A DNA stretch of 64,000 bases from Amoebophrya sp. A120 (GCA_905178155.1 CAJINV010000002.1:6552476-6616475), one strand, 5' to 3'. Shown: positions 12,450 through 34,429, counted from the stretch's first letter. The notes: generated by a model from the letters alone, not told the origin. A program made the numbers and translations.

Positions 12450-12991
12450 GGGCGGAGGGTTGTGGTGGGTTGCGGAGGGTTGCGGTGGGTTGCGGAGGGT
12501 TGCGGAGGGTTGCGCTGGTTTCTGCATCTACCCCGATCGCCGCAGCCTCATAGTATGCTTTTACTCTTTTTCATTCTTCCAAAAAAAGAAAACAAAGCCA
12601 CGACATACATAGCAGATCACATACAACAAGCGGGGGGGGGTGAGGAAACACCAGCGGGGCGGGGGGAGGAGGGTTGCAGAGGGTGGCTGAGGGTTGCGGA
12701 GGGTTGCGGAGGGTTGCGGAGGGTTGCAGAAGGTGGCGGAGGGTGGCGGAGGGCGGCGGAGGGTGGCGGAGGGTTGCGGAGGGTTGCGGAGGGTTGCGGA
12801 GGGTTGCGGAGGGTTGCGGAGGGTTGCGGAGGGTGGCGGAGGGTGGCGGAGGGTGGCGGAGGGTTGCGGAGGGTTGCGGAGGGTTGCGGAGGGGTTGCGG
12901 AGGGTTGCGGAGGGTTGCGGAGGGTTGTGGTGGGTTGTGGTGGGTTGTGGAGGGTTGCGGCGGGTTGCGGTGGGTTGCGGTGGGTTGCGGT
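12450..12991 (-). repeat. Right-arm satellite in inverted orientation: (GGGTTGCGGA)n plus one inverted ~200-bp unit
   Basis: About 30 tandem gggttgcgga/gggtggcgga/gggttgtggt units at 12670-12991; inverted long unit at about 12515-12670. Confidence 0.92.
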
Positions 12992-13780
12992 CGGGTCGTT
13001 GTTGGTTGTTTTTGTGCTTTTGCTCTTATATAGGACAAAAATGCCAATCACGATGGTAGTGCACCTATTTGCTCTCACGCCTTGATCTTGAATATTTGTC
13101 CTCAGTTAATATGCGAAAAGCACTAGCACGAGATCTCTTCCATTTGTTTTGGACTTGGAATTCTTGAGGTACTCAAGGTTTCTAATTCTATGAATAATTA
13201 AAACGCAATATATATTTTTTATTTTTTTACAGGAAAGACTGCACCACGCCACCCACGTCAGGTCTGCGAAGCATTTTGACGCTCTATTACTCACACGATC
13301 ACAGTTTCCTACCGCTATCGCTGGAGAACGGCAAAATAGATCTATTTTACCAACGCAGTGACGAACAAGTGTTGATCAAGATTTCATATTAGACAACTGC
13401 ATAGTCAGCAGGAGATAACAGCAGATGAGCTTTCTGTGCTTTTGTTTGACTGGAGTGACAAAGGATCGATCAGTTTGTTTCTCCGTGTTCTACGAGCATG
13501 TGGTCTTGATTTTATGGATTTTTTTCTTTTTCACACTGCAGGACTGTGAGCTTTTCTTGTATGGATGCAGCAGGGTTTTTGGTGTGCAAGTCGTTTTTTG
13601 GTGTGCAGCGTTGCTCTAATTTGAAGTAGGCGGTAATCACAGATAGTACCACGCGGAGAAGTTCAATTACGCGTTAAATGCAAAGTTTTGAAGTTTTTTT
13701 TTTCGTTGTGACGAAACGTGGAATTTTTACAAATGCAACTGCAACTGTTTCGCTTTTTGAAGACTAAGTAATACTGAAAT

Positions 13781-14047
13781 TTGATTTTTCGAACACTTTT
13801 ATCACTTACTGTCTTAGATAATATCTCTTGCCATGACAAACGAATTAACCGCATTTATCTTTGTAGATGCCTTACATGTGGATTTAGTTATGTTGGTAAG
13901 TCATCTGATTTTACATCAAAAAACTCAAAATACCGTCGGCCAGATGCTCACACTCGTCATTGTTTCCACTATGATGATGCATCTCCCTTTTATTATCATT
14001 ATCGACAGTATGAGCGCCATGTTATTTCCTTTCAAACAATCTGTTAT
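13781..14047 (+). pseudogene. N-terminal half of PLE GIY-YIG endonuclease (CCHH type)
   Basis: SCHDKRINRIYLCRCLTCGFSYVGKS...RRPDAH...FYYHYRQYERH fits the PLE EN pattern C-x-N-x-IY-x3-C-x2-C-x3-YVG...R-x3-H...YxH...H. It is cut at 14047 by the transposon TIR. Confidence 0.85.
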
Positions 14048-14537
14048 GAGGTTCGATTCCCAAGTCAAGTAAATTTAGTAAATTGAAATTATTTTTTTGA
14101 AAGTGCGAAAAGGGAAACGGGGTGCGGCAGCGGTGCGAAGTCTTTCGGTCTGGTAAAGATTTGGGATACGGAAGCCGCCCCGGATTAGTCGAGCTGCGCA
14201 GCTTACTATGATCGAGGTCGTCGTCGTAAATAGTTTCGCCAATAGTATTCCCTCGAGAGAGTCGTTGCAAATTCGAAATCGCGAACAACTTGTGACTGGT
14301 ACCAGAAGCGGATAAATGAGGGTCGGCGGAACTCGGCAGCAAAGGGATTTTTTGAAAAATGCTCATGCTCGGACTCGTTCTGCAACTCCCCGCGTTGCAA
14401 TCATGATGTGAATGCAAAATGAATGCAGTAGTTTTTTTTTTCTGATATCTGTGTTGCAAATGCCACCCACTACTAGAATTGCCTTCGGTCAGTTTTGCTT
14501 TCATAAGCGTCGCGGTCGTCGCCCTTCTCCTTCCAGC

Positions 14538-17500
14538 ATGGATGGCGAACGATTCAAGACCGCCATCTACGAGCCGGCAAAGGGCTATGCTATGGGGGCG
14601 CTTATGTTCGCGGCCTCCTTGCCTTTTGCTGCGTTTTCCACGTCCGCCTCGCTGCTCCTCGGATTTGACGTGTCGAAATCTGCTCTCCTCCGCCTCCGGG
14701 AGAGGTCGGTGGAATACATCAAGCGGCACCAGAAGGAGCGGCTCCGGGCTGCCGCAAGTTCCGACGACATCACGCCGGTGGTAATACGACTGGGCCACGA
14801 TGGCACGCCGCTTGGCTTAACCGTATCAAAAGCTACGGGAACCGGCATTACGAGGGGCCGGCACAACCACAACGGCGAAGATATGGCGATGGTCACAAAT
14901 ACCGCCCACATGTGTGGGCGCAGCGCATTTCTGATCATTTTGGTATGCTATGCGATTATCATCACAGAAATGCACTGCGCTCGGGCCTTGGGCGGGGTAT
15001 TTGATTGTCCCTCCATAAGAGTACACGTCTGTACGGCCACTGCCTGCGTCGGAGCGGGCACAGCTTGGGCCAAGATTCGAATTCCGGTGGACCTGGTGCT
15101 CCTCGCGAAGAAGAAGGCAGGGGACATCTGGCCGCGGCTGCAGGCGGTCTTGGAGGAGGTCGAGCGACTGGCGTCAAACGTGGGGGGCCGCCGACCAGTA
15201 GTGGTGCTCAACACACAAGACTCGGGGGGCGCAGGTCGGAAGCTGAAGAAGATCTTGCGGCGTTGGGCACGTTTGAAGGACGAGCGGAGATCACGACGCA
15301 CCGCGGCCATGACCCTCTACTGCGCGCACCATTTTATCCAATTGGGATTTCTAGATGAGGCCAAACGAGCCCTCGGTGGGAATAGCAGCGCGAAAGACTG
15401 GGCCCACAAGCTCTACGTGTTTACGCGCAAACTCGTGTATCATAGGTGTGATCTGCTCGAGGAATTGGAGGAATGGGTGGGAAAGATGTTGATCAAGCCC
15501 ACTACCCAAGCAGCAGCGCTGATGCAGCATCCGGGTGGCGGGCCCGCGGGCTCCGTTGAGGTGCTGGACGAAACAGGAGCACTTTTTCGACTTCTCGGCC
15601 GCGGCGATAGTGACCGAAGCAAACAGGCCGCAGACGGTGTCGGCTGGAAGTCGTCAGCGGTCAGGTACGACAACTTCAACTCGAAACTCATTGCCAACTC
15701 CAAGGAAGAAGCCGTGGAAACCCTGAAGCAGCTGCTAGCGCGAATTCAGGTCGGGAGCGAGAGCCGTTGGCTGACCTTGGGTCGTTCTTGTGTGGCGATC
15801 CTCCTCTTGTCGGCGCTTGGGGGCCGTTGTCTCGTCGCGAGGAAGAGCGACGGATTTCGGGAGTCGGTTCGGAAGCAGTGGGGAGAGATGGTTGACGAGC
15901 GGATGCTGACGTATGCTTCTGAAATCCAAGCGGCAGTAAGACGCCTCAGCGCGAAGAGTGTGGCCTGCGTCAGGGCATTGGCTCTCACGCAGACTAGTGC
16001 TTTGCGGTGTCGTTTGCCGCTTTGATTTCTCATTTCATATTGAAGTAGCGGTGATCGCGCGGCCGTGCGATGTGGTCATGGAGGAGACGCTTCGGCGGGA
16101 TACACTTTTACCGGGCGAGACGCTCAGGGCCAGGCTGTATGAGTTGCAGCAATTGGCCTGGACGGAGGTGCTGGACATTTTACACATCCTGGGGCCATTG
16201 TCTGATCGGTTGGATGTATCTGCTCTGGCTGGTTCCGTCGTTCGTGCCGCAATGCGTGTGAGCCAACGGTTACTGCGGATAGACGCGGACGGGATTCTAC
16301 TTCCCCTCCTTGACTTGGTGGACGAGACGCAGCATCACGCCACGACTCCAGCTTTCCGGGCGCTCGAGATCGGGGAAGATTGGGAAGGGATTCAGGGGCT
16401 GTCGGACGTCCAGCTTGTCCAAGTTGCCAAGGCTGTAGCCGCGGTTTTGACCATCGGGACACGCCACGAAGAATCCCAACATGCTATCTCAGCCCGGAAA
16501 GTCGGCCTGAATACGCATCGAAGGACGATAGAAGGTCTGTCGCAAGAAGTCCTAATCCCCCAGTTTTCGGCCGCCTTGGTTTCGGAATACACGCTGTCGG
16601 CGTTGAAGCAGTTGAAGAAGACCAAGCAGCCCCGGCCCCAGAACGCCAGCACGCGCTCACTTTTCATCGGGAAGGAGGTGAGGGAGGCAACTTGGCGCAC
16701 AATTGTGAATAATCCGGAGGTATCAAATGCGAAAACGTCTGGGTCTGGAAGAGTGCAGGAGTTTGTCATGCAGATTTTGCATGACCCTGAGGTCTGTGAT
16801 GCGTGTTGTAGCATGAGAGATTCTGCGAGGGCTTTCTGATGCTCATATCGCATGAGAACAGCCCTCTCCGCGTAGCAAAAATTGCACCTCTGTTGCTGTT
16901 CATGCAATACAAATCTTTTCTAGAATCCAACGCCAGCATCACAAGTTGCAACCTTCTAGACCCAGACATTTTTGCAATGCATAGAGGGCGGTTGACAAAT
17001 CCTTTGGGAAGTCCCGGCAGGTCCAGGCGAAGGAAACTTTCACGGCCGCGGCGGAAAAATGGGCGAGAATGTCCGAAGCAGATAAGGCGAAGTACGAGCC
17101 GCTCCGCATATGAATTTCAAAACAGTCACTGCCCCATGCAAGATTGTCATGCTGATTTGCATCTGGAATTGCATCCTGAATTTAGAAGCAGCACTGCCAC
17201 AGGCGAGAACTTGTGATGGTTTTGAGATTCATACGCAAAGCGACAAAAGACGGGCGGTGCCCGTTCGAGTGGGATTGCCGCTAGTAACGTGGCGAGCAGG
17301 GCAAGCGAAACTTCCGGCAGCGTGGTCCTGCCGCGGCCCGGTCAGATCCGCATTGGCGCCGACGGCAAGGCGAAGTGGGAAGCCGGTGGAGCAGGTTCAT
17401 CCGCTGGAAATACCAAACCACAAGCACACAAGACAGCGCAGCAGCACGTCGCGCCACCTCTTTCTGCTGAACGACCTGCGGGTGAGTCTTTGGAAGCTAA

Positions 17501-19055
17501 GCTTGGCCGACCAGATCTTCCCATTCCGCTCGAGAAATTGCAGGGCTACTGGACGGAAAGCCAGGAAGAAATTTCTCTTGCGCGGACTTCTTCGTGCGCA
17601 GCACCCCTCTCCTGGAACGGGACTTCAGTGCAGGCGGCATATGATCGCTCTGCTTTTGCCGCTGAAGAAGGGCCGTCCAAGATCGTGCGGATGATATTAC
17701 ATGCGGAAGACGGGCGCGATTCCGGGAACATTGGGGCGATCGTCTTCGGGAAAGATCCGGAGGAAGAGGGCGTTGCACTAAAGAGCAACCAGAGTGGCCG
17801 TCTTGAACAGCCACGCAGCCAGGTCTTGGTGAGCAAGATCTTCACTCTGGCGCCCTGTGAGGGCCATTGCAGGTCCATTGTCTTTCAGGAGTTGGAGCAC
17901 CGTCCGTCGCACAACAAACAGTATGAATTTCACGCCGCCCTTCCCGCCGCCCCAAGCACAACCGGCAGTAGGTTTGAAGAGGTTTTTGCCAATTTCGACG
18001 ATGGGCAGGACGTCTGGTACGCCCCCCTGCGATTCGATCTCGTCAGCAGCACCTTCGTGTTTGACTGGTTGGAGGGGCGGTCCTTGTTCGACATGCTCAA
18101 CGACTTCGCATGCAGTGATGAGGAGGATGGCGGGGATGACGAATCTGGTAGCTCCAGCTCGGAGGAAGAGCAGTCGAGCGAGGAAGACGAGGAAATAGCC
18201 GCTTTGCTCCGCGCAAAAGCGGCGCGGAATAAGGAGGTAGAGCAATTTTACGCCGATCCGACAATAGTCAACAAAACAGCGCCGGTGGGGTACAGCACTT
18301 CTTCCAGGAGAAAGGGCGGCGCCGCGGGCAAGTCCACTCCCGCTGCCGCCGCGTCGGCTTCGGCCAATGCCCCGGGAGGTGGGGCGCCACAGCAGTCAAC
18401 GGTGGGGCAGCGCAAGTACAAGGGCGACGCCGGGTACGAGGATGACGCCGAAAACTTGCACGCGCAGCTGCTCGCTGCGCGGGAGCAGCTCGACGAGATC
18501 CCGGCCGCCGCAACCGACCGCCACGGGTATTCCACCCGCCTAGGCGGCGGACTTTGGCTCCGCGCAAATACGCGGGTAGGGGCATCCGGGCACAAGGCCT
18601 GGATGCCAGATGGCGGAATATGCTACGACCGGGTCATCACATTCGGGCCTCCGGAGCTTCATCGTCGTTTCGGCTTACCGCTCAGCAAAACAATCGACCT
18701 GCACAAGTTCGGGGGAGTAACAGTCGCGAAGCACCTAGGGGCGGTATGGGCGGAGGCCTGTCAGTTTGTTGTCCGTGAGCTGCAGAAGAACGTCGTGCCG
18801 GTCGAGTACGAAAATTTCGAAGAGGTGCGAAAACGGGTGGAGGAAGCAATTCTTATTTCGCGGGAATATCTCCGCGTCGTGACAGATGAGCCCGATGCGC
18901 AGGAACTGCAGGAGGCGGCAGGCCGGGAGCAGCCCCTCAGCAGCATCTCTGTGCAGCAGCGCGCGGAAGCTGCAGTGACGAGTGATTTAGTGTTATCAAT
19001 CGCAAAGCACATGCATGCCAAAGCAAAAGAACAGAAGAAGTTAGTAGGGTCGTAG
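14538..19055 (+). CDS. Multi-exon DDE-type transposase with CxxH and RW motifs, an HMG-box-like segment and an acidic C-terminal extension
   Basis: VIRLGHDGTP (D at 14799), VVLNTQDSGG (D at 15219), LYCAHHFIQLG (CxxH at 15321), SESRWLTLG (15762), GTRHEESQHA (candidate E near 16468). Exon 16985-17107 reads AAAEKWARMSEADKAKYE. ORFs 14412-16025, 15958-16839 and 17289-19055 join after removing inserts; exact exon borders are uncertain. Confidence 0.72.
14918..14980. repeat. Short IR-bounded insert (putative non-canonical intron) in the transposase gene
   Basis: gcgcagcgcatttctg (14918-14933) versus cagaaatgcactgcgc (14965-14980), 15/16 inverted match around an AT-rich core. Confidence 0.65.
16721..16983. 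mobile_element. TAT...ATA introner (263 bp) in the transposase gene
   Basis: 31-bp imperfect TIR tatcaaatgcgaaaacgtctgggtctggaag; flanking repeat gagg. Same TIR family as 22972 and 53281. Confidence 0.85.
17109..17233. mobile_element. TAT...ATA introner (125 bp) in the transposase gene
   Basis: tatgaatttcaaaac / gttttgagattcata inverted repeat; flanking repeat cgca. Confidence 0.8.
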
Positions 19056-19219
19056 TTTATTAGCTGAAGCAGATAACTACCCTCCTCGGCATGGTTGGGC
19101 CCTTCCGTGTCCTGCCAGATTTCTTTCAGTAAGAAGCGCCGTCGCGGCTGCTTGCGCGGTGGCAGTCTAAATCGCCTCTGCCTGGCCCCGCGCCAATGTT
19201 CACTCCTCGGAGCTGTCGA

Positions 19220-19700
19220 TGAGAGACGCAAAAAAAAATCTGTCGCGCGCCACGAAAAAAAAATAGACCGCGTCGGCCCGGGCCCGCGCCGATTTTTTTT
19301 CTCCTCCCGCGCGGAAAAAAAAAAAACGCGCAGAAAAAAAAAGCGCCTCGCACCCAGAAAAACCGGCGGCAGCCGGTTTTTTTTGGTGCGCAGACCAAAA
19401 AGTAAATTGAATAAATTGAGATTTTAAGGTCCTGTTTCCGGGGCAAAGGAAATCCTTCCCAAAACGCCTGTGCCCTAAAATCGGTCCCTTTTTTTTCAAT
19501 TTATTCAATTTACTTTTTCACCGGGCAGTTTTTTTTCGGCCAGTTTTTTTTTTCCGGTGGACCCGCCGATTTTTTTTTCCTGCGTGGATTTTTTTCTGCG
19601 GTGAAATTTCGGTTCTTTTTTTCTGGGCGCTACGGGCGCCAGCCTCAGAAATTGGCTCTCCCGGGACCCCGGCCAAAATTTTGCTTCGCGTCCGCGGCTC
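19220..19700. other. Intergenic A-tract/T-tract mirror region centred on a perfect 23-bp inverted repeat that resembles the transposon TIR
   Basis: aaaaagtaaattgaataaattga at 19397-19419 and its exact reverse complement at 19496-19518. Mostly A-runs to the left and T-runs to the right, separated by GC-rich spacers. Confidence 0.75.
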
Positions 19701-19942
19701 GCTAGCCCGTGAAAAATAATCGCGTGTGAGAGCCCGAGCGAATTTGTCGTCGTAGTGCAAAGTTGGTAGTAGCGCTCGAAGTCGTATGTCGATATTGAGT
19801 AGAACAATTTGCAAACTGGCACAAGCACTGCGTCTCAAACAGGCAGAAGTAGAAATAAACACATCTAGACGCAAAAAGCACCCTAGTAGCTCACCCCTTA
19901 AGACCCACCTACCTGCCTCTGCCCAGTAGAAAACGTGGCAAA

Positions 19943-22900
19943 ATGGACAGAGGATCGATCGCCAAGGCGGTCGTCAACAAGCAGACAAAGAAGGCCAAGG
20001 CCAAGCAGGACCGCAAGGAGCGGGCCCCGATGACCAACAAAGCCATCGAGGAGGCCCTGCGCGGCAAGGGGCATGCGGTGAACCAGCACAACATCGCGAT
20101 CTACCGCCGGTTGAAGGGCAACTTGCAAAAGGTCGGCAAGCATGGACACACGATCATGAACCTGTTCAACAAGGACAAAGACACAATACGCGAATGCAAA
20201 AAGCTTCCGCGTGTTCCACTCAGTACGCATGACAGATATGCATGACAGACGCATGACAGATAGCGACATTTGGACACCAGAGGGCACACACGGAAGTTTT
20301 TAGCCCCATAGCCCGGAAACTTGATCTGGGACGACAACAAGGTGGACGGGTACTGGGCCACCCGGACAAAAAAAATCAAGACCCTGCCGTGGAAAACGAT
20401 GGGGAAAAGGCTGACCAAGTTGTACAACGACCTGGCGCCCAAGGAGAAGCTGAACCGCATGCCCTTCGTGTTTTTGGCGATGCCGCCCGGTGGTGAGCAG
20501 CTGGCATCCGAATCCCCGAGCCCCCTGAGTGGGATGCAGGATGAAGAGGAGCTGTCCGACGCCTCCGTCGCGGGAGGTGGTGATGATGACGAGGGTGAGG
20601 TGGAGAAGAATGACGAGGTCAGCAGCGACGGGCTTTCCGAGGAGTTGGATTTCAACGAAGACGGTGACGCTTTCGATGAGAATAATTCGAGTGTGGTCGT
20701 CGAGCAGGGCCTGCTCGAGGGGGCCGGTGAATACGAGGGTGATATCAATGCTGGTCAGGTTAGTCGACAACTGCTTGCATGAAGTTCCCGCATGAAAATG
20801 CCGCTTTTCTTCATTGCCCTGACCAGCATCGATTTTGCGTTGCATATTCAGCAGGACGTGGTCGAAGGAGGAGATGCTGGCGGGGGCGATGTCGACATGA
20901 TGGATGTGGGGTATAGTGGGTTGCTCTCGTGATTCTATATGGAAGTGTTCAGATTTGTCATGCGAGTTTTCGGATTTGTAATGCGTGTCGGCACCTTGTC
21001 GCAAATGAGTCTCCGTCTCAATTTCATTTTCAGATTTGACGACGGTGGAAATTCTACGGACGCTTCCAGTGGGTTGCAGCAGTTGCTTGGTGGGGCCAAG
21101 GTGATGCCGTCTTCTTCTTCCTCCACCCGGATCAAAAACAACAATCTGGATTTGAGCGGGAACTCCGCGAGCAGCAAGCAGAATTCCTCCTCAACCTCTC
21201 TCGGCGGGGCCCTCGGAGCTCTTACGACCTACAGCAACTCTTCCAGCACTAACATCAATTCTACCACCACGGAAGTAGAGTGCCGGCATGTTGTTCCGAA
21301 GGTGGTCACGGCCGAATTGTGGGAAGACGATGAGTTGCAGCAGATGAAGAACGCGGTGCACGCGATGTGCAAAAGCATTGGCAGCGTCGGAGTGGAGGAC
21401 GTCGCGCCGCTGTTCAAGTTCGCGGAGCACTATGAGAGCGGCATGATGATCCTGGAGAAGTTCTTTCGCAAAGGGTGGGGATTAGAAATCTTCGCCGAGC
21501 AGACCTACCCCCTGCGGGCGTTCAAGGAGCTGCAGTGGTTGGCGTGGTGTGATTACAACAAGCCGGGGTTTCGGCCGCCCGTCCTGGCCAACGATTTTCC
21601 CGCTCCGTCCTGGCTCTCCGAGCATGACGCCGGGATGCAGCGGGCGATGGATGAGGCAGAGGTGCTGGTGTACACCGAAGTCGTGCTGGAATCTATTCGG
21701 AGCAATAAAATCGAAGACGCCAAGCAACAAATGAGCATGATCATGATGGAGATGGGAAGTTCCTACCAGTTGGCCCTGCAGGAAGTGGCTTCGACCCGCG
21801 CCTGGATGGAATTTCTTCCGGTCCAGGTCATGCACATTGCGATCGTGGAATCCTTGAAGAAGTACGACCTGACCATCGTGGGGGAAAACCACTACCCCTC
21901 CTACCTGATGAACGACCGGACGTGGGTGAACATCGGCGTGGAGACGACTGCCAGCGATTTGATCGACGCCGCGCACGAAATTTCCAACATGCCGAAGGCC
22001 CAGGTTCCGTTCGAGGAGTTTCACCGGAAGGTCTCCGACATGCTGTCCAAGCTGGTGGAAACTGCTATGGAGCGGTTAGAGTCGCAGGTGGATGCCGTCC
22101 TGAATGCGAAGACCTATATGGACCTGCACTGGAAGGCTGAGTATATATGATTTTTTAGTATTATTGTTGAAGGTGTTTATCTGTGCCAGAGTCTGCAACG
22201 GCCCGTGTGAAGCATGACGCTTGCCCTATTATGATCAAGGAAGGAGAAGGCTTAAGAACTTACAGCGCCAGTTGCCCGCTTGTATGTGCGAGCAGGCCTA
22301 TTGAGGGGCGGGGGAAGTCTCAAAATGGCAAGCGCTCCAGCCTTGCGCGCGCTTTTCCCTATCCCCACGCTGTTGCTCTTGGGTTCGGCATATCTGGGGC
22401 TTTCGGAGACTGGCCAAGAAGTTCATCTCCGTTCTCAGTCAACACAAATGGGCAGGGGCCGAACATTGCGCATTTTGTCCCGCTCTTGCCGCGAGGCCAG
22501 TGCAAGTTCGAGACCTTTGCCTAGCCTGCAGCTGCCTGGAGCGCGGGGAATTTTTCTCATATCCTAAATCCATAAACGAAAACACCAGGTCTACCACCGT
22601 CCGCAAAAACCTCGAGATGGCCGTAAATGTTTTCGAGAAGGGTAGTGTGAAGCATGACCGCGCGGCCCGCGCGATCTACTACTGCAAGTTCCAGGAGGGC
22701 GCCCTGAGCGAGGAAGCCACGCAGGCGGCTGCGGACTCCCAGCTGTTGGCGACGGACTTCGCGTACAAAGCGGCGATGGACCGGTACTTGGGGTACACCA
22801 GGATTACAGGGGAGGGAAAAAACGAACTGGATAAGATGCTGAACTACTCGGAATCCGACTGGAAGGCCGAACAGGACACGGACATTCTGACGCTGATGAT

Positions 22901-23555
22901 TGACCGGGCCGACAAGTTTCGCGCAACCATCCCGAAGTTTCTCGCCGCCAGCCAGGTCTCGAATCTCGCGGTATCAATTGCAAAAATGTCTGGGTTTGGA
23001 AGAATGCAAGATTTGTGATGCAGGTTTTCCATGGCCCATAAGGTCTGGAATGCGAGACCCAGCATGACAGATTCTTTGAGGTCTCCACCATGCCTTTCCT
23101 GCATGAGAAACTCCCTCTCAACTTGGTCAAAAGGGGACAGCTTTTGGCACTCATGCAACACAGATTTCTGCATGATTCGGATTTAGCATGACAAGTTGCA
23201 ATCTTCCAGACCCGGGCACTTTTGCAATCCATACGCGGCGTTGTCGAACAACATTTCGGACGAGTTGATCCAGCGGAAGCGGAACGAAAAGGTGGACGAA
23301 GGCAAGAAGAAGGCCGTCCGCTCCCGCGAGGAGAAGGAGGAAAATAAGGGGTTGCTGCCGGCGACGAAGAACCAGAAAAAGGAGCAGAAGGAGCGCCTGG
23401 AGAACGCCAAGCGGTTGGCGAAACAGGAGGAGGAGAAGAAGAAAAACGCGGCGGCGAGTTCCTCCAGCTCTTCGTCGAATGTCGTGAGTCGTGGTGGTGG
23501 CAGCAGGAACAAGGACCTCTTCCTCGAGGCCCTCAAAAACGCGAAGAAGAAATAA
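19943..23555 (+). CDS. Second transposon-borne gene, multi-exon, unknown function
   Basis: GC3-rich ORF segments 19943-~20190, 20321-~20745, ~21034-22140, ~22340-22971 and 23239-23555, separated by IR-bounded or AT-rich inserts. Basic N- and C-termini, acidic stretch. Confidence 0.6.
20743..20833. repeat. IR-bounded putative non-canonical intron
   Basis: atcaatgctggtcagg (20744-20759) versus cctgaccagcatcgat (20818-20833), 15/16 inverted match; contains the stop that ends ORF 20321-20782. Confidence 0.65.
22972..23233. mobile_element. TAT...ATA introner (262 bp), 5-bp TSD cgcgg
   Basis: tatcaattgcaaaaatgtctgggtttggaag / cttccagacccgggcacttttgcaatccata; cgcgg at 22967-22971 and 23234-23238. 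Element plus 5 bp is 267 nt, joining ORFs 22500 and 23196 in frame. Confidence 0.9.
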
Positions 23556-24884
23556 GGACTGGGGTTTTGATCAATTAGCTTCTGCATCTACAACTACAAA
23601 AATTTTGCAATCCAAATGTAACGCTCTTGATGTATTTTTCTTGCATGGCAAACCTCTCGTTGTTTAGACAAGCAGCGGCACCGCGACTCCGGTGTCTCGT
23701 AGTGGTCAGCAATCCTCGTATGTCGTAGATATCTATCCTAGGAATGAAAATCTGTAGCTTCAGATCCTCGCGTGTCATGCTTGAATTTCCGACAGTCTCG
23801 CACTCAGAGTTTCGGTGAACGTTACTCCGCCCACCGAGTCGGGATGGTTTCAGTGAGCTAATCTTTATATTCACAGCGACTATATTATTCCGGTCTGTAG
23901 CCGGCCAGCTTCGAACTTCTTATTTTTACTCAGCCTGCCGCCCCGCTATTACGCCGCTTGTAGTTCTAGCAATTCAAATCTCGGACCGCGGACTCCACGC
24001 AATCGGCGCAGGTTGTTTTAATTTTGACCGAGAGCTTCTCTTTGTTTCTTGCCGGTGTTGGCTCGTATCTTTCGCGCGTCCCGTTGGATGTGTTGACTAG
24101 AAAGTACCAGTACAGGAATTATTTCAGCTTGAATTGTTATCGCAAAAGGTAAAGTGTTGATATCTAGCAGTCCGCTTCCCACTAGGTGGGCCCTAGAAAA
24201 TTTCCCGAGACCGCAACAGCTCAGCAAAACAATTTTCACCTTGATTGATGCAAAACAAATTTGAAGAATTAGAAAGCCCCAGTCCACGAAGACCGTAAGT
24301 CCAGTGACACCCAGAGAAACGAACTCGAGGATCTCCAAGAACCGGACGAAAATGTTTGAACTTCTTTTTCTGACTCCTTATCAATTCCAAGTAGCACCGT
24401 GCTACATGCACCGAAGGCAATTCGGCATCAAGGTGGGTCTGTTCTGGTATTTGCAACGCACACACGTAGGCATGAGTGGGGTTTCTCCAAAAAGACCGCA
24501 GATATTGATACTCAAATCAAATAAAAGCACACAGCAGGAGGTGCGGCGACGTCGGGACGTCAATGTATGGGCAGGTCTCCACCCTCCGCCGAGGTGGCAG
24601 AATTGCGGACGACGCGACTGCCGTGTGGGCGGCAGCAGCAGCAGTAGCACTTCTAATACCAGTAGTAGCGCGTCCTTCTAATAGCAGTAACCCTAACTAC
24701 CAGCAGTAGCCGTTGGGTGTGGCAGTAGTCGGAGACTTTGGGAACAATCGAGGGGGACAAACAGGAGGAAGCAACAGGCGGAAGCAGCAGCCGCGGGGTT
24801 ACATAATACCATCATGTCGAAAAAGTGTCGTCAAATTTTTAATTTCAATTTACTCAATATACTTGACTTGGGAAATCGGACCTC

Positions 24885-26245
24885 TTAAAATCTGCATTAC
24901 AGATCCTACAAAAAATGCTTCTATTTTTCCAAATCAAAGCCACCTCGATTGTGTTGAGAATTTCTTTATGTACTCTATTGGTACCTTTTTTCCTCTAGGA
25001 GGCAATTCTCAAGTTTTGAATATCTTAACCGGTAAACAAATATATCCACGTCGTGGCTTTTGGAATTCATTTTTGGCATTTCTATTTTACACATATGAAA
25101 ATGCTGAGCAAACCAAAAAAGAAATGCAGCAAGTAATTAACAATAAACGAAAACTAAAAAATAATGATAAAAGTTTTTTGGAAAAAGTTTGCAGCGACAG
25201 CTCCAGCATCCCACCTGCGTCCAATCCAGCCTCCGATGCCACCCGTGCAGCCATGTCTGCACCTCACAAGATTGGAAAGCTTGTGATACCTGCACCAGCA
25301 ACAGGCAATGGTAAAAACACTCCATGTAGTGTTTCGCAAGATGAAAAATCGAGGCCAAGCAATCGTACAGCCACATGCAGTGCGATGCCGAGATCTGGCG
25401 CAGGCACTTTGGAAACGACGACGAGTACATGCAAAAATATGCCATGTAGTGCTACGCCCTTTCTGGTCTCGAGATCTTGCAATAGTGCGCCATGTAGTGC
25501 TACGCCTTTTACGACTACGAGAACTACCAATCGCACGTTGGAGAGTGTTACGAGTTCAAGCAATAGTACTCCATGCCGTGCTACGCCAACTACGCTATCC
25601 AGGACATGCATTACAACGCTGGAGACACAGACGAGACCTAGCAATAGTGCCCCATGTTGTGCAACGCCTTTTGCGACTGCGAGGACTTGCAATAGCACGC
25701 TGGAGACAACTAATACGGCTTCGAGTTCTTGCAAAAGTGCGATGGAGACACAATCGAGACCTTGCAATAGTACCCCATGCAGTGCTACGCCCTTACCGGT
25801 TTCGAGTTCTTGCAATAGTACGATGGAGACATCTACGACGTCATCGAGTTCTAACATCAGGACGCTAGAGACACTCTCGAGGTCTTGCAATAGTACCATG
25901 TGCAGTGCTACTTCCACTACGATTGCGAGAACTTGCAATAATACGAGGGAGCCATCTATCATGGTTCCGAGCTCAAGCACTAACACACTGGAGACTAAAT
26001 CAAGACCATCCGCTTCATCGCGCTCAGATATAAAAAACGGAAATACAACTGCTACTACCACTAAAAGACCAATAACGTCCGAAGCAGGCTGCTCTATTCC
26101 CCCGCTGAAACGAAAACTCGGGGGAGGAACCGATTGGAGAAGCGACCTTTTATTTTCCGAAAACTTTCATAAAAAGAGCTTCTGTACGACCTGCAGCCAC
26201 CATCACAACAAAACCAGCCGCGAAAGCCAGCACTGGAAATATTAA
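24885..26245 (+). pseudogene. PLE polyprotein segment 2: C-terminal half of GIY-YIG plus Cys/Ser/Thr repeat region
   Basis: LDCVENFFMYSIGTFFPLGGN matches the GIY-YIG end motif (E-x2-W/F-x3-L/I-x-T-x2-P-x-G-x-N). Same frame as the 13781 half. Confidence 0.8.
25320..25990 (+). repeat. Coding minisatellite (SRxCNSxPCSATP / CNSTLET modules)
   Basis: caatagt-type motif at about 25480, 25561, 25642, 25690, 25765, 25813, 25888 and 25936 (spacings 81, 48 and 75 nt, all multiples of 3). Confidence 0.85.
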
Positions 26246-29200
26246 TCATAATAGTAATGCGGTAAAACTAATTACAGAAAACAAAATCATTGTGCCCGGA
26301 AACACTTCTGCTCCAGACATGTTAGACGACGACACTCCGGAAAAAATCAATGATATTTTGGTAGCTCAAAATATGAAGTCTGACTCGCTCGACCAAGGAG
26401 CTGCTGCTTCTGCTCTTCAATCCGCGCACCTGCGAGCTTTCAACCTAGACTCAACTGATGCCGACACAATCATCCCGCAGTCTTCTCAACACAGTGAGCC
26501 GACGACGATCAAAACGCCCACTCTGCAAGAAAAACCTCCACGCACACACGCGCGACCTGCAGATGCTTTTCACGAGCGTTCTGATATGCCGCTGGTGCCG
26601 GAATTCAAAATGCTATTTTGTCTGGGACGGAAAAACACGCGAGTAGTAGTCCAGCATGTAGCGAATATGTGGACTGAACAAGAACGAAAAGCGACGCGGA
26701 AAAAAGCAGAGCTCGAGGATACGAGGCACAAGATGAAGTTGCTGGCTCTTTTGTTTGCAAAGCGGATTCATGGTGCCTCCGAATCCCTCAAATCGTTTGC
26801 AGCTGGTAGAGAAAAAGTCTCCAGCAGCAAAATCGTCCCGCCTCCAATTCCGGGCTTAGCGCGGCGATTGAAGCATCAGATAGCCTGCGCCTACGACCAC
26901 TTCCAAGATTTCACTGCAGACCAGAAGCCGGTGGCTACGGGGAAAGTTCCATCTTCCGCCGTGCCTGTTTTTAGCAACAATTCGTCCACAGCCGACGAAT
27001 ACACTCCTGCATACCAAGAAACGCACCCGAAAAAGCTTAAGTGCCACCTCTCCAAACAGTCATGCCTTGCGACGAAAACGACTAGTGGAGCCAGAGCTTC
27101 TGTTTCAAACATCCAAGCGGAAAGTCCACCGATCCCAGGACGTTTGCAGCCAGAAGGTGGAGTAGAAACCAAGCCACTAATCCGAAAACGTCCCCAGATT
27201 GAAACATTGCTTCCGCCGCTGCCTGAAGATGATGAACACGATGTCGGAATATCGAGGTTTATACACGTTGACGAAGAGGTGCAGCACGACCAAAATCGAC
27301 ACGAAAATGCTGCTGCTTCTCAATCTTCAATGATTCTGCCAGCGGTAGATGTTCAGCGCGCTCCTGTAAGTGAAGATGAAGTCAGTGCTTCCTCCTGTGT
27401 CCTAGAAGCTTCTACGACGCCAGCATCTACTTCCCTATTCGTCGACTCAAGCATAAGCCAGCGCATTCTGCCCATCGTTGATCCAGATACTGCTTCTGAC
27501 TTCTCCGCCTCACAGGAATTTTTTGAAAACGAGCAAGACAAACCACTTCCCAGTTGCCGGGGGGAAGCTAAAGCTAGTCGCTCAGCAGAAGAATTGATAT
27601 TCGGTGAGCAGTTGGCTGCTGTGCGGGCTCAGAAGAACAAAAAAGCAGTAGCTTCTGTACACCAAATTACACACCGTCGCACATCTACAGCAGCAATAAA
27701 GTGTGGAAATTTCAAGAGCCGTCTCTACGTCCAGCAGAGCATCGCTTTTTGGGAAGCTTGGCTTACGGAAACCGACATCGAAACAGTAATAAAATCAAAA
27801 CCCAATTGCTGGCGGCTAATAATCCAGACGGTTGTGTTGTTTTTTCCCAAAACCGAACACGGGATAGCCACCCTACAGCAACAACTTCTGAGATCACAAA
27901 AAATCTCTTCTCACTTGAAGGAAGCGATATTCGACGCCATGCACTTCGGAGCTGCAGACAAACCTAAGCCACCACGTCCACCCGGCTCCTTCAAGTCTCC
28001 GATCGTTTTGCTGTGGCATAGCCCGACTGTGGAAAAGGCGAATATAGCCGGAATTTTGAAAGCAGCCAACCTGCACGAGAAGTGCATGATCTCATGGGCC
28101 TATAATACACCCGAAAGCGTCGGACTTTTCAACGCGCGGCATTTGGTACAGAAGAAATTTCACAAGTGTGATCTTTTGTGCAGTTGTGCCTACTACCGTG
28201 GAATTTTGAACGAAAAGTATTTCGTTCGCGGCCACCTCTGCATTGCCCCGGACGAGTTCGGGCAGTTGTTGTGCAAGGACGACGCGCGCGTCTGGTGTCG
28301 GGACATACGTATGCTCGACGATGCATTTCGCTCCGCCATGCCGTACTCCACCGAGACCCTCTTCGAACGTGTGCAGCAAGGATTTGACGCTGTTGCACTT
28401 GCACAAATCAGAAACGAAGTAGGCGAAAGGATCGAGACTTTCCAGAAAACAAATCCAGCGGCGTACGCAAAGTTAGCAGCTTCCGAGGATCTCGAGGAGA
28501 TGAGGGATTTGATAACTAGAGCGCAGTCTCGCGGCCTGGTGGATTGCCGCGCGGACAAGATCAGCAATCCGTTCAGGATCTGCAGGGCACTACTATCAGT
28601 AGTAGTTCGTGACCTTTGCGGAGTAGTGACTTTTACAAGTCTAAATGCTGCAAACAAAGCAACAAAAGCAAAACAAAAAGAACAAACCGAAGACCCTGCT
28701 GTTGCTTTTCAGAAATCAGTTTCGGCGAAGCAGTCTCCATCAGCCGTGTCCATCGAATCCCTACCCGGTCACGTAGAAACTCCATCCCAGCCGTTCCTCC
28801 CGAACCAGATGAGAATTAGCCAAGATGGGGCCATGGCTTTGAACCTGACCTACGTGAACCACAAGGCCCGGCCCACTCTGAAATTCCGGGAAAGTGAAGC
28901 TGTTTCTGTTGCAAGCTCTCTTTTGGTTGCTGATGCCTACCGGAAACTAAGCGACGAAGTAACCGCTAACAACTTCTTCTGCTGCCCCCTCTTCTCAAGC
29001 ATGAACGTGTACGAGGACAAAGTTCTTTACGTTGCGAATTCAAGCTTCTTCGTAGTGCAACTTTGTGGGTGGATAATGAGAGACGTCTATCTCCCGCAGC
29101 ATCACAGCGTCGATAGATCTTCCATAAATATTCGCAACTTGGACCACCTCGTGGCCAACGACAACATCGCTCGGAATCCAATCGAGTTGCTGAAGCCGTT

Positions 29201-31283
29201 GTTGCAGAAAAAGTTGCGTCTGGGGTACAAGTACGACAAAGAAGCAAGTACGTACTTTCGTCGGAGAGGAAAACAGCGCGGAGCCAAAAAACGCAAAAAG
29301 GAAAAACCTCACAACTACAAATCAGTGATGCAGTCGTACAAGCGGGGTCCGCAGTCGCGACCTAATGCAAGATGGTGTAAAAAACGGAGCAACATCATCA
29401 GCAAGCTTCCTTCCGAATCTCCGCCAGAAATAAAAAACTCTGCTGCTACCGGTGCCAAGTTCTCCATCCGACCGCTGATGCAGGTTATCGGAGCTTCAGC
29501 AAAATGGAGCTTATCATCTGCTGCAGCTAGCCTCCGAGCATCGAAAGACGAAAATGCAGGGTGGAGCCAGCATGATTTGGATGCCGCCATTGCTAATTCG
29601 CTAGCAGATCAAGCAACTTTGGACTTGCAGACTCAGCGTCTACGCCAGCGCGTGCAAGAAGCGGGCTTCAAGATACTACCTGTTGAAGAAGATGGCAACT
29701 GCTGTCTCAGAGCGATATCGCAGTCGTTGCACAATTCCCAAGTGCATCACGAGTACTACCGCATGCGTGGCATCCAGCACCTCATCGACAATCGCAACCA
29801 TTATCAAAATTTCCTCCAAGAAGATCCAGCGTTTCCAACTTCCGACGAAACCTGGCGCAACTACATCCAGTGCATGGCGGTTGCCGGCTGCTGGGCTGAT
29901 CATGTTATCCTGAGTGCAGTTGCAGCTAGCGGAAATATCATCTTCAAGCTGATAACAACATACGAGGACGATGCTCCGATTGTTGTTAAGGGGCCACAAG
30001 CCAGCGCTGCTTCCTCATCACCTCGAATGGTAACCCTAGCGTTCCGCGCGGAGGTGCATTATGATGCTGGAGAGCCCCTCCCCGCAAATACCGCGATGCC
30101 AGTTCATGCGGATGCCGTGGGAGAGGACAACGTTGAAGGCAGAGCAGCGGTGGACATCGACATACGCGAAAATGCAGAAGTAGTGAAACCTGGAGCCGCC
30201 CAAGCAATTTTCGAAGACGCAATGAAAGCAGCAAATAAAGCACTAAGAGCAGAGTACGCGAGAAGCCTTGCTCGAAAACATCAAAAGCAATTACGCGGCG
30301 GTGGTTTCGGATCGTCAGTGCTCGCTTCACAAAAAAACAGGAAAAGCGAGGTCCTGTCCCCGGCTTCTAGCTCTGCGCGCTCGTCTTCATCATCTCCGTG
30401 TTCTACGAAAAGCGATAAGTTTCCTTTTGATTTAGTCCCATGCAAGTCGAAAGCTTCCACGTCGCAAACAGGGATACGAGCTTCGACGTCGGCCTCTCCA
30501 TCTTCAGCCACCAAGCTCCCATCACATCAGATTTTGTGTGCAGGCGCTACGACGACATCCTCATCATCGTCTGCTGTTCCGGCGGGATTAAAAAAGTCCA
30601 GTCATGTATCACAAAAAGCGCAGGCGTCCTCATCTGCCACGTCAGCATCCGCTGCTGTGTCTCATCCATCGAAAAAAGCTTCTACAGCAAAGAGCAAATC
30701 GCCAGCCACGTCCAACAGTAAGTCCGCCTTTGGAAAGCAAATCGGATTTGTTTTTTCAGCAGACTCGCGGGCGAAGTCAAAAGAAAGTGGAAGGGCGGCA
30801 GCAGTCCAGAACAATAGTGGAAAGCATGCCCATCCATACACAGCTGCGATAAAAACAAGCAACACCTCGAAGACAACGTCCGAGCCTACAAGTAAAGCAG
30901 CCTTTTCGTCATCCGTGATGAGTTGTGTTTCAAATGCAATCAGGAGCAAGGCCTCGATGGTGAATATTCCGCATACAGCATTACTCTCTTCGTCTACAAG
31001 CTTGCTGAACCACAATGCTGCGCCTGTGCCTCCCCCTCGACAACCACGGGTGGAAACGCAAAGCAAATTTGCATCGGTGCGAGAAGATGCTCTACCTGTC
31101 CATGAAGAAGACGCTCCGCAGAGACACCCTCCTCCACCACCTAAATTAATCCCGCGGCCGCACCAAAAACCCGAAGAAACAGTTGTTCCCGTGCGGAAAA
31201 TTCCTGCAGCGCAAGCCGATATTCTTCCCCCACCGAAAAAGCGTGGAGGTAAGTGGGAACGCGACCGGATAAAAAAAGTATAG
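26109..31283 (+). CDS. PLE polyprotein segment 3: CxC linker, RT N-terminal ADK motif, UIM-like motif, OTU cysteine protease, Ser-rich tail
   Basis: Frame is open from 26109. CMISWAYNTPESVGLFN...LCSCAYY...RGHLCIAPD; CRADKISNPFRICR...RDLCG; HDLDAAIANSLAD (29571); PVEEDGNCCLRAIS...CWADHVILSAVA...LAFRAEVHYDA. Confidence 0.85.
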   Translation, partial: NENSGEEPIGEATFYFPKTFIKRASVRPAATITTKPAAKASTGNINHNSNAVKLITENKIIVPGNTSAPDMLDDDTPEKINDILVAQNMKSDSLDQGAAASALQSAHLRAFNLDSTDADTIIPQSSQHSEPTTIKTPTLQEKPPRTHARPADAFHERSDMPLVPEFKMLFCLGRKNTRVVVQHVANMWTEQERKATRKKAELEDTRHKMKLLALLFAKRIHGASESLKSFAAGREKVSSSKIVPPPIPGLARRLKHQIACAYDHFQDFTADQKPVATGKVPSSAVPVFSNNSSTADEYTPAYQETHPKKLKCHLSKQSCLATKTTSGARASVSNIQAESPPIPGRLQPEGGVETKPLIRKRPQIETLLPPLPEDDEHDVGISRFIHVDEEVQHDQNRHENAAASQSSMILPAVDVQRAPVSEDEVSASSCVLEASTTPASTSLFVDSSISQRILPIVDPDTASDFSASQEFFENEQDKPLPSCRGEAKASRSAEELIFGEQLAAVRAQKNKKAVASVHQITHRRTSTAAIKCGNFKSRLYVQQSIAFWEAWLTETDIETVIKSKPNCWRLIIQTVVLFFPKTEHGIATLQQQLLRSQKISSHLKEAIFDAMHFGAADKPKPPRPPGSFKSPIVLLWHSPTVEKANIAGILKAANLHEKCMISWAYNTPESVGLFNARHLVQKKFHKCDLLCSCAYYRGILNEKYFVRGHLCIAPDEFGQLLCKDDARVWCRDIRMLDDAFRSAMPYSTETLFERVQQGFDAVALAQIRNEVGERIETFQKTNPAAYAKLAASEDLEEMRDLITRAQSRGLVDCRADKISNPFRICRALLSVVVRDLCGVVTFTSLNAANKATKAKQKEQTEDPAVAFQKSVSAKQSPSAVSIESLPGHVETPSQPFLPNQMRISQDGAMALNLTYVNHKARPTLKFRESEAVSVASSLLVADAYRKLSDEVTANNFFCCPLFSSMNVYEDKVLYVANSSFFVVQLCGWIMRDVYLPQHHSVDRSSINIRNLDHLVANDNIARNPIELLKPLLQKKLRLGYKYDKEASTYFRRRGKQRGAKKRKKEKPHNYKSVMQSYKRGPQSRPNARWCKKRSNIISKLPSESPPEIKNSAATGAKFSIRPLMQVIGASAKWSLSSAAASLRASKDENAGWSQHDLDAAIANSLADQATLDLQTQRLRQRVQEAGFKILPVEEDGNCCLRAISQSLHNSQVHHEYYRMRGIQHLIDNRNHYQNFLQEDPAFPTSDETWRNYIQCMAVAGCWADHVILSAVAASGNIIFKLITTYEDDAPIVVKGPQASAASSSPRMVTLAFRAEVHYDAGEPLPANTAMPVHADAVGEDNVEGRAAVDIDIRENAEVVKPGAAQAIFEDAMKAANKALRAEYARSLARKHQKQLRGGGFGSSVLASQKNRKSEVLSPASSSARSSSSSPCSTKSDKFPFDLVPCKSKASTSQTGIRASTSASPSSATKLPSHQILCAGATTTSSSSSAVPAGLKKSSHVSQKAQASSSATSASAAVSHPSKKASTAKSKSPATSNSKSAFGKQIGFVFSADSRAKSKESGRAAAVQNNSGKHAHPYTAAIKTSNTSKTTSEPTSKAAFSSSVMSCVSNAIRSKASMVNIPHTALLSSSTSLLNHNAAPVPPPRQPRVETQSKFASVREDALPVHEEDAPQRHPPPPPKLIPRPHQKPEETVVPVRKIPAAQADILPPPKKRGGKWERDRIKKV

Positions 31284-33087: not shown

Positions 33088-33619
33088 CTATCCGTGGTTT
33101 GCATCCATTCCTCGAACCCCAGCTGTTTGTATTGCCCTTCTGTTTTCTATGCGTTCTTTGGTATGCCTCCTGTTAGGGCCTTTGCATGCCAGCAATGGGG
33201 GTCCAAATTCAAAAAGACTATAAATGTCTTTTCGAATCTGGACACTTGGAATGTTTGTATTGCATACTCCTTTAACCTGGGTGAGGTCTTACAAAGTCTA
33301 CAACTTTATGTCATCATCCAATGGCTTTTTTGAATATAAAATTCTGAAGGCCTCCGTCTACATCTTTAGCTTGGTTGCTTGTTCTGTTTGTCTTTCAATT
33401 CTGTCATGCACCCCGTCCTTTCTGCAATAAAATGCCAATCATCGGTCTATGTCGGTTTTGATTCTGTCATTCTTGTGCGCGTGCCATTTCTGGTTTTTTC
33501 CTCTCGGTTCTTTCTTTCCCTGCTCCGCATTCATGAGAGAGTTAGAGTTTTCGAATTTGACATCGTTTTGCTATCTAGACCTCCTATGTATCTGCATCGC
33601 CTCGTCATCGTTTTCTCGT

Positions 33620-33900
33620 AGCCGCATTACAAATATATTTTTTATCTCCATCTCATCGATCACGACGTCAATCTCGGTTTTTTGTTATTTTTAGCATTAC
33701 AAATGATCTATAGAGCTATATTATCGATCTCGACGCTCTCATCGGTTTTTTGTTCGTTCTAGCATTACAAATGATCAGTAGCTCTCATTTTTCGATCTCG
33801 ACGTTCTTTGCTCGCTATTTCTGCACAAATATAGGTTTTGCTAGATCTACCATATCGATCATGTTCGAAATCGATCTCGTTCTCGTACCTTGGTCGCTAT
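33620..33900 (+). repeat. Degenerate ~68-70-bp tandem repeat (3-4 copies) downstream of the RT
   Basis: gcattacaaat...tcgatc(a/t)cgacg...tcggttttttgtt starting at 33624, 33694 and 33762. Confidence 0.75.
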
Positions 33901-34429
33901 CGATCTCGTTTTTCGTGCCCCGAGTGAGCTTCTCCTTGCCTTCTCCCTCCTATTCCCAATTTCCTTTCTTTAAGCACGTTGTTTTCGTGGTTTTATGGTC
34001 GGTGAACCGGTACCCCTGTCCGCCATAAATATCTATGACACGTCAACAAGCGAGCACTCCCACACACTATCTCTTTCCTCTGCTTCATAGGGCAGCGAGA
34101 CTGTGTATGGTGAGACGGCAGGGGCTGAAGTGCTTCCTCTTTTTCGGTCACGAGTGAGTTTCGGTGCGTGTTTTTGTGTTGCGAGTGAACCTGAGCTGTC
34201 CAAATCTCTGTTTCTGTTCTCATGCAAAAAGGCCATTTGCATGCGTCAAAAAATTCAAACTTACTGTCATTGCGGAAATTTCTAGATGCAACTGGATGTT
34301 CCTTTGCCGCTGTATTAAGCGAGAAAATGTACTGACAGCATCGAAATTTCTATGTGATTGATAAATGCAAGATTGCCAAGTATAACACACTTTTTTACTA
34401 CCTGTGAAAATAAATAGATTTGCAAAAAA

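What the first reader, a model, noticed from the sequence alone, without database searches (positions are those of the whole stretch)
14030..24900. GIY-YIG endonuclease cut in two by a 10.8-kb TIR transposon
Seen: ...HVISFQTICY ends exactly at the left TIR (14048), and KICITDPTKN...VENFFMYSIGTFFPLGGN resumes just after the right TIR (24884) in the same frame. Deleting 14048-24886 (10,839 nt) yields one continuous nuclease domain. This explains why the RT appears endonuclease-less. It also orders events: the PLE came first, then the DNA transposon.
Basis: partly seen in the sequence, partly recalled or inferred. Interest (0 to 1): 0.8.

Follow-up and report, generated by a model that had tools for sequence, protein, structure and literature searches.

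The report
Nested transposon splits retroelement endonuclease
A 10.8-kb, two-gene, likely cut-and-paste transposon sits inside the DNA-cutting gene of an unusually long Penelope-like retroelement, probably in the marine parasite Amoebophrya; the nesting is ordinary, but it exposes a retroelement type not found in print for dinoflagellates and a transposon family that profile searches miss.

Summary
The insert is 14044-24888 (10,845 bp, ~58-bp imperfect inverted repeats). Removing the element plus one copy restores the frame. The order, retroelement first and transposon second, follows.

The insertion is only part of why the RT looks endonuclease-less. This is an N-terminal-endonuclease (Naiad/Chlamys-type) Penelope-like element: 25 of 37 long RT relatives scanned carry GIY-YIG at the N-terminus, none at the C-terminus. 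It spans ~8.5 kb of coding sequence, has two frame breaks and carries an OTU protease domain.

The insert encodes a ~1,200-aa protein with DDE/CxxH-like motifs and an HMG-box-like segment, plus a second spliced gene. The same pair sits in an ion-channel gene model of another Amoebophrya strain. Its superfamily is unresolved: no profile or fold match.

Verdict: new variant of known kinds, moderate interest.

The parts
13778..14043 (+). N-terminal half of the PLE GIY-YIG endonuclease (GIY-like and YIG-like motifs, CxxC, conserved R and H, CCHH histidines). No ATG in this frame after the stop at 13775, so the start is unlocated.
   Evidence: Pfam PF01541 E 0.032; profile of relatives 27.5 bits; full-length profile positions 70-131
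14038..14043 (+). Left copy of the 6-bp target-site duplication AATCTG
14044..14101 (+). Left terminal inverted repeat (~58 bp, imperfect), beginning TTATGAGG
14538..19055 (+). Gene 1, ~1,200 aa, several introns inferred from homology; predicted DDE transposase. Candidate D (14799), D (15219), CxxH (15321), RW (15765), E (~16468); HMG-box-like segment 16600-17110; long unknown C-terminal part.
   Evidence: Collinear with P0153 over its residues 1-1168 at 33-48% identity; motif positions; HMG_box_2 E 0.0029, below cut-off; no other Pfam, NCBIfam, PDB or fold match
16721..16983 (.). Short hairpin-ended introner-type element inside gene 1; removal of 268 nt joins the two HMG-like pieces in frame
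   Evidence: thousands of contigs pile up here
19397..19518 (.). Intergenic palindrome whose 23-bp perfect arms resemble the inner part of the terminal repeats; possible transposase-binding sites (inferred)
19943..23555 (+). Gene 2, spliced, function unknown; RNA-like contigs end at 24381
   Evidence: Skips 20186-20314, 22141-22588, 22967-23233 in run X3; 576-codon spliced frame; 23% identity over 460 aa to P0155, E 8e-40
22972..23233 (.). Second introner-type element with 5-bp direct repeat CGCGG, absent from the RNA-like contig
24831..24888 (-). Right terminal inverted repeat
24889..24894 (+). Right copy of the target-site duplication AATCTG
24889..26245 (+). C-terminal half of the endonuclease (conserved E and N), K/R-rich block, then a low-complexity repeat tract; frame ends at 26245
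   Evidence: Profile positions 149-227, E 8e-4; repeats D7
26109..31283 (+). 1,724-codon frame: Naiad-like linker, CxC-like motif (28179), GxKY-like motif (29220), OTU-like cysteine protease (29691-30065), low-complexity tract
   Evidence: Pfam OTU 25.5 bits, above cut-off 23.3; profile positions 251-357 weak, E 0.023; motif positions
31273..33087 (+). Penelope-like reverse transcriptase with thumb, 604 codons; no endonuclease behind it
   Evidence: 308 relatives at E<=0.001; full-length profile 157 bits; Atlas clusters with HTH_animal/RVT_1 at 0.92-0.95
33088..34260 (+). 3' region repeated elsewhere in the genome; likely the PLE 3' end (boundary not fixed)
   Evidence: Summed contig depth up to 868 vs 42 in run X1

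Best explanation
A 10,845-bp element with inverted ends and a 6-bp target duplication interrupts the N-terminal GIY-YIG endonuclease of a Penelope-like retroelement, and was likely inserted by its own predicted cut-and-paste (DDE) transposase, likely disabling this retroelement copy. Shown: ends, duplication, frame restoration, one endonuclease domain across the gap, collinear order endonuclease-linker-RT, two genes in the insert, splicing of gene 2 in RNA-like contigs. Inferred: gene 1 is a CxxH-type DDE transposase (hAT/P/MuDR/Kolobok/Dada group) that binds the repeats, perhaps helped by its HMG-box-like segment, and makes a 6-bp staggered cut; gene 2 is an accessory protein carried with it. 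The retroelement would have moved as other endonuclease-bearing PLEs do, its nuclease nicking target DNA to prime the RT. Its OTU domain would act as a deubiquitinase or polyprotein protease. The two +1 frame breaks are either decay or non-canonical introns.
For: Ends and duplication. Domain score and controls. Composition match of the halves. One profile of full-length relatives maps in order across the four frames (positions 70-131, 149-227, 251-357, 529-915). 25 of 37 long RT relatives scanned have N-terminal GIY-YIG and none a C-terminal one. P0002, named Amoebophrya by its source, matches both the 1,724-codon frame and the RT frame, tying them together. An RNA-like contig joins 25153 to 32767, so endonuclease and RT regions lie in one transcript. 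Mobility of the insert: P0154, an Amoebophrya AT5.2 gene model, holds gene 1 then gene 2 in the same order directly behind a truncated ion-channel domain. A sister right end (11 differences in 75 nt) with a different flank occurs in X3 and X5. The CxxH motif marks hAT, Kolobok, P, MuDR and Dada transposases (PMC3706591, passages).
Against: No empty-site copy was seen; the target sequence is reconstructed. Gene 1 has no profile, PDB or fold match, and both models were poor (pLDDT 37.6 and 39.3), so 'transposase' rests on motif order and context. The middle link of the PLE is weak: the linker match has E 0.023 and a CxC profile did not detect the motif (E 3.7, rank 13 among 953 frames). No pseudo-LTR match between the 5' and 3' flanks. 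The 25153-32767 joint is one contig in one of three runs of one sample, and those runs are only guessed to be RNA. An 8-bp duplication with one mismatch and uneven ends gives the same empty site and cannot be excluded (read from the flanks).
Confidence: 0.8

Rival explanations
1. The insert is 14048-24884 and targets TTAA or TA (Kolobok-, Sola3- or Tc1-like; target rules recalled), and AATCTG on both sides is chance.
For: TTAA follows the right GAGG/CCTC core and TTAT precedes the left; an exact TA pair exists at 14047/24885.
Against: Needs a mutated duplication or mismatched tip, plus a chance 6-mer (about 0.9%). Leaves the endonuclease out of frame (112 codons; 24.3 bits). The sister end is followed by TTGA, not TTAA.
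Confidence: 0.06
2. The split endonuclease belongs to a separate, upstream, truncated PLE; the OTU frame and RT belong to a neighbour or a chimera.
For: About 6 kb and two frame breaks separate endonuclease and RT; the linker evidence is weak; PLEs form partial tandems (PMC8557442 section 6); GC differs along the element (0.33, 0.48-0.50, 0.42).
Against: Collinear domain order; N-terminal endonuclease is the rule among the RT's relatives; no second RT in the listed frames of the window; the RNA-like joint links both regions.
Confidence: 0.1
3. The insert is real but non-autonomous or moved by another chemistry; gene 1 is cargo, not a DDE transposase.
For: No match in Pfam, NCBIfam, PDB sequence, Foldseek, VIA-align or Atlas above 0.76. 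Gene 1 had almost no RNA-like cover in X3.
Against: The candidate D, D, CxxH, RW and E motifs are kept in a 40-48% identical homolog, in the expected order and on predicted strands and helices (low confidence). Both genes travel together to a different site in another strain.
Confidence: 0.15
4. The whole insert is removed from RNA like the host's hairpin introners, so the endonuclease is restored at transcript level.
For: One RNA-like contig in X4 matches 24889-25102 and its last 13 letters do not fit beyond 24889, exactly where an empty junction would leave the alignment. Introners are removed from gene 2. A 7.6-kb skip with inverted repeats near its ends exists in the same locus.
Against: The 13 letters were not shown and could be adapter or error (depth 2.9). 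X3 has a contig running unspliced across the right repeat (24680-25153). Gene 2 transcripts end at 24381, inside the insert. The left half had no RNA-like cover in X3.
Confidence: 0.07

Closest known systems
Naiad/Chlamys Penelope-like elements (Craig et al. 2021, PMC8557442; abstract, passages and sections 5, 6, 9 read)
   Same: N-terminal GIY-YIG, C-terminal RT; conserved R, H, E, N; CCHH as in Naiads; K/R-rich block after the endonuclease; CxC-like and GxKY-like motifs; no hammerhead found; frameshift-prone linker is described for Naiads; a Josephin-like protease is described in one Chlamys family.
   Different: Host is likely an alveolate ('alveolat' and 'dinoflag' occur 0 times in that paper's main text); CCHH-type endonuclease outside animals; ~8.5 kb coding span vs 3.4-4.4 kb (Naiad) and 3.3-8.2 kb (Chlamys); OTU domain inserted between the GxKY-like motif and the RT; three frames; DKA appears at most as DHA.
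hAT6 group of hAT transposons (as described in PMC12730594, passages)
   Same: Terminal inverted repeats, 6-bp target duplication, candidate DDE with CxxH and an RW motif (RW recalled as hAT-like).
   Different: No hAT profile or fold match; two genes; HMG-box-like segment; ends begin TTA.
IS3EU and Dada (PMC12730594, PMC3706591; passages)
   Same: 6-bp target duplication; Dada shares the C/DxxH motif.
   Different: IS3EU ends are TAYGG..CCRTA, not seen here. Dada lacks terminal repeats and targets small-RNA genes; this element has repeats and sits in a coding sequence.
Amoebophrya introner elements (Farhat et al. 2021, PMC7789003; passages and section 10 read)
   Same: Two such short elements sit inside the insert's genes; all are inverted-repeat elements with short direct repeats.
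   Different: The insert is 40 times longer, encodes proteins, and has other ends and a 6-bp rather than 3-5-bp repeat, so it is not their obvious master element.

Membership tests
Naiad/Chlamys PLE | GIY-YIG endonuclease N-terminal to a PLE-type RT | tested here: met
Naiad/Chlamys PLE | Conserved R, H, E, N beyond the GIY-YIG core | tested here: met
   alignment
Naiad | CCHH motif in the endonuclease (absent in Chlamys) | tested here: met
   Two Cys inside the core and two His aligned with relatives
Naiad | CX2-5CxxC linker upstream of GIY | tested here: inconclusive
   Only one Cys in frame; the 5' exon or start is unlocated
Naiad/Chlamys PLE | CxC motif between endonuclease and RT | tested here: inconclusive
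   Look-alike at 28179 right after a weak linker match, but profile E 3.7
Naiad/Chlamys PLE | GxKF/Y and DK(A) motifs | tested here: inconclusive
   GxKY-like at 29220 and DHA at ~31720, by eye only
Naiad/Chlamys PLE | Insertion-in-fingers domain between RT3 and RT4 | tested here: inconclusive
   Aligns without a deletion to the profile of N-terminal-EN relatives; no canonical PLE was on hand for contrast
Naiad/Chlamys PLE | No canonical hammerhead ribozyme | tested here: met
   No Rfam hammerhead in 12900-34800; a loose pattern matched once, inside the RT frame
Naiad/Chlamys PLE | Single ORF | tested here: not met
   Three frames in this copy; both breaks are in the DNA contigs. Frameshifts in the linker are described for decayed Naiads.
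Naiad/Chlamys PLE | Pseudo-LTR or tandem structure | tested here: inconclusive
   No 5'-3' match in the window; 3' region is repeated elsewhere
Naiad/Chlamys PLE | RT falls in the Naiad/Chlamys clade | tested here: inconclusive
   Quick tree without named references or outgroup: groups with P0003, P0004, P0006, P0016 (SH-aLRT 98), long branch 2.47
Naiad/Chlamys PLE | Microsatellite target preference | not tested
   Element ends not fixed
hAT6 | 6-bp target duplication and terminal inverted repeats | tested here: met
   (one copy only)
hAT6 | hAT-type DDE transposase by profile or fold | tested here: inconclusive
   Motifs kept in P0153; no profile hit, models too poor
IS3EU | Ends TAYGG..CCRTA | tested here: not met
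Dada | No terminal inverted repeats; inserts in small-RNA genes | tested here: not met
Kolobok | TTAA target duplication (recalled) | tested here: not met
   TTAT left, TTAA right, TTGA in the sister end; frame not restored
Amoebophrya introners | Short, non-coding, 3-5-nt direct repeat, removed from mRNA | tested here: not met
   Insert is 10.8 kb, coding, 6-bp repeat; removal from RNA only hinted

The most novel reading that the evidence does not exclude
The insert is a member of an undescribed two-gene transposon lineage (CxxH-DDE plus HMG box, TTA ends, 6-bp duplication) that is precisely removed from RNA as a 10.8-kb autonomous introner, so the interrupted OTU-bearing Naiad-like retroelement still makes its endonuclease. 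The first half alone, a new transposon lineage, I put near 0.3; the probability given is for the whole.
Probability: 0.07. Interest if true: 0.8.

Novelty: new variant of a known kind. Interest (0 to 1): 0.42.

Why it matters
A transposon inside a retrotransposon is ordinary. Two by-products are of use to specialists. First, N-terminal-endonuclease Penelope-like elements were described from animals, green plants and slime moulds. A CCHH-type one in a likely alveolate, with relatives in three source-named Amoebophrya strains, widens the clade and bears on whether the CCHH nuclease is an animal innovation. Its OTU domain, with UCH domains in 2 of the 37 long relatives scanned, adds cases of deubiquitinase capture by retroelements. 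That theme is known: Josephin in Chlamys and Dualen, OTU in a Symbiodinium LINE. Second, Farhat et al. found only two putative transposases in one Amoebophrya genome and none in the other, and used this to rule out general transposase-driven intron spread. A two-gene TIR family invisible to profiles, present in at least two strains, suggests that such searches miss divergent transposases, although this element's ends do not match the introners.

Tried and rejected
No whole genome is held for this window, so copies could not be counted by script. Word-based search with the RT found only the window's own protein; with gene 1 at near length, nothing. No related loci in metagenome contigs (0 of 67 and 0 of 26 pattern matches confirmed) or viral contigs (0 of 4). 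PDB sequence searches gave nothing for the RT or gene 1. Two AlphaFold models of the gene 1 homolog were low-confidence, and Foldseek and VIA-align returned only generic helical matches: uninformative, not evidence against a DDE fold. Atlas search of gene 1 scored 0.76, a lead at most. Rfam gave one chance-level hit. The bacterial promoter scan does not apply to a eukaryote. No RNA holder was listed on record. Run X8, same species label, covered only the introner repeats. Lack of RNA-like cover over 25154-32000 and over gene 1 is not used as evidence of silence. A head-to-tail pair of elements meeting at 19400-19520 was considered and rejected: the inner arms face the wrong way and lack the terminal 15-mer. 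A CxC profile failed. The careful tree did not finish. Look-ups of earlier findings by place, words and sequence were empty. Not-in-print claims rest on paper searches, of which I saw listings and abstract starts; Repbase and supplements were not seen and may hold such elements.

Full report
What was checked. Inverted repeats are there: 14044-14091 pairs with 24888-24840 at 89.8% over 49 nt, about 58 nt with the weaker tail. A scan of end positions and duplication lengths found one exact duplication of 6 bp, AATCTG, at 14038-14043 and 24889-24894, directly outside the arms. Its chance is about 0.9% after allowing for ~20 registers. The element is therefore 14044-24888, 10,845 bp. An 8-bp duplication with one mismatch and uneven ends gives the same empty site and is not excluded.

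The join. Removing element plus one copy (10,851 nt) opens a 538-codon frame. A TTAA or TA model closes after 112 codons. Pfam sees the left half only weakly (E 0.032). I built a profile from 25 endonuclease domains of proteins found through the RT, so the test is not circular. The best of 588 control joins scored 31.5. Both halves have GC 0.33-0.35 and GC3 0.24-0.25, against 0.57-0.59 and 0.65-0.80 for the insert's genes. Contigs of run X1 bridge both junctions without a difference; X1 may be the window's source.

The retroelement. The 604-codon frame at 31273-33087 has 308 relatives at E<=0.001, of which 150 were listed. I scanned 37 of the 42 listed relatives over 700 aa, plus three short top hits. 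Of the 37, 25 have GIY-YIG within the first ~265 residues (21 above the curated cut-off) and none has it at the C-terminus. One profile of full-length relatives maps in order onto the left half (positions 70-131), the right half (149-227), the 1,724-codon frame (251-357, weak, E 0.023) and the RT (529-915, 157 bits). This is the permuted Naiad/Chlamys layout of Craig et al. 2021 (PMC8557442; abstract, passages and sections 5, 6, 9 read), with the CCHH motif that marks Naiads. Without the insert the coding span is 8,459 nt. It carries an OTU domain above the Pfam cut-off between a GxKY-like motif and the RT. The CxC motif is only a look-alike (profile E 3.7). Two +1 frame breaks are in the DNA. 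The closest relatives are named Amoebophrya by their sources (P0002, 69% identical; P0003, P0006, P0016), and an unfinished quick tree of 34 rows groups the RT with P0003, P0004, P0006 and P0016 at SH-aLRT 98 on a long branch. With the introner-type introns this makes Amoebophrya the likely host genus (inference).

The insert. Gene 1 (14538-19055) is collinear with P0153 (1,209 aa) at 33-48% identity. Both keep D, D, CxxH, RW and E motifs in the order expected of the CxxH group of DDE transposases (PMC3706591, passages; the RW and E contexts are recalled). An HMG-box-like segment follows (E 0.0029, below cut-off), split by a short introner-type element whose 268-nt removal restores the frame. 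No profile, PDB or fold search confirmed a transposase, and both models were poor. Gene 2 (19943-23555) is spliced in RNA-like contigs and matches P0155 (E 8e-40). P0154, an Amoebophrya AT5.2 gene model, holds both genes in the same order right behind a truncated ion-channel domain: the pair sits at a different site in another strain. A sister right end with a different flank appears in X3 and X5. Known 6-bp makers are hAT6, IS3EU and Dada. The ends exclude IS3EU, and the repeats exclude Dada. hAT-like is the best guess, membership unproven.

RNA hints. X3-X5 are one sample and only guessed to be RNA, though they skip introns. One X3 contig joins 25153 to 32767, skipping 7,613 nt; X3 and X5 join 33087 to 33271. 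Both skips end in AG on the minus strand, which favours an antisense transcript. The long skip is also in frame on the plus strand and has imperfect inverted repeats near its ends, so the strand is open and a template-switch artefact is possible. One X4 contig stops at 24889 with 13 unshown letters, where a precise empty junction would stop. Adapter is an equally simple reading, and another contig runs unspliced across the right repeat.

How it most likely works. The retroelement inserted first. A two-gene transposon then cut 6 bp apart inside its endonuclease gene and left the duplication, likely ending this copy's ability to move by itself. The RT would look endonuclease-less regardless, because in this clade the nuclease is N-terminal.

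Novelty. Nesting is ordinary. My paper searches (listings only) showed no report of an N-terminal-endonuclease PLE in dinoflagellates or of an OTU-bearing PLE. A 2024 review has no whole-word mention of Penelope (PMC11453091, passages). Repbase and supplements were not seen. Deubiquitinase capture by retroelements is known (passages). Farhat et al. found few or no transposases in these genomes, and earlier unreviewed notes on this genome report other profile-invisible hAT-like elements, so this is likely one of several. Verdict: new variant of known kinds, interest 0.42.

Noticed in passing
window 9595-13081: A 3.5-kb inverted-repeat element with GG..CC tips, an exact 8-bp duplication TTGATCTT (9587-9594, 13082-13089) and arrays of a 10-bp unit; looks like a non-autonomous Merlin-type element (Merlin features recalled). 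It ends about 700 bp upstream of the endonuclease.
   Followed up: partly
window 25154-32766: 7,613-nt skip in one RNA-like contig, with imperfect ~45-nt inverted repeats 12-15 nt inside each end; on the plus strand it fuses the endonuclease C-half in frame to the RT thumb.
   Followed up: partly
window 29492-31357 vs P0002: The sister protein P0002 jumps from before the OTU region to the start of the RT frame; either its gene model has an intron there or the sister lacks the OTU insert.
   Followed up: no
P0062, P0115: Two RT relatives carry a C-terminal UCH deubiquitinase (E 4e-10, 4e-31), a second kind of deubiquitinase in this PLE group.
   Followed up: no
window 32241-33131: Run X1 holds diverged RT copies (about 82-91% alike), so related PLE families exist in the genome.
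   Followed up: no
window 53281-53537: Third introner-type element of the same kind, with 5-bp direct repeat ACAGT.
   Followed up: no
window 58486-63123: Three tandem paralogous frames (400, 274 and 284 codons) sharing a conserved block, family unknown.
   Followed up: no
window 36025-39343: Two neighbouring frames with repeated CCCH-type zinc-finger motifs, by eye.
   Followed up: no
window 19349-19390 and 19200-19700: A 42-nt palindrome and A/T-tract, CG-rich low-complexity DNA between the insert's two genes.
   Followed up: no
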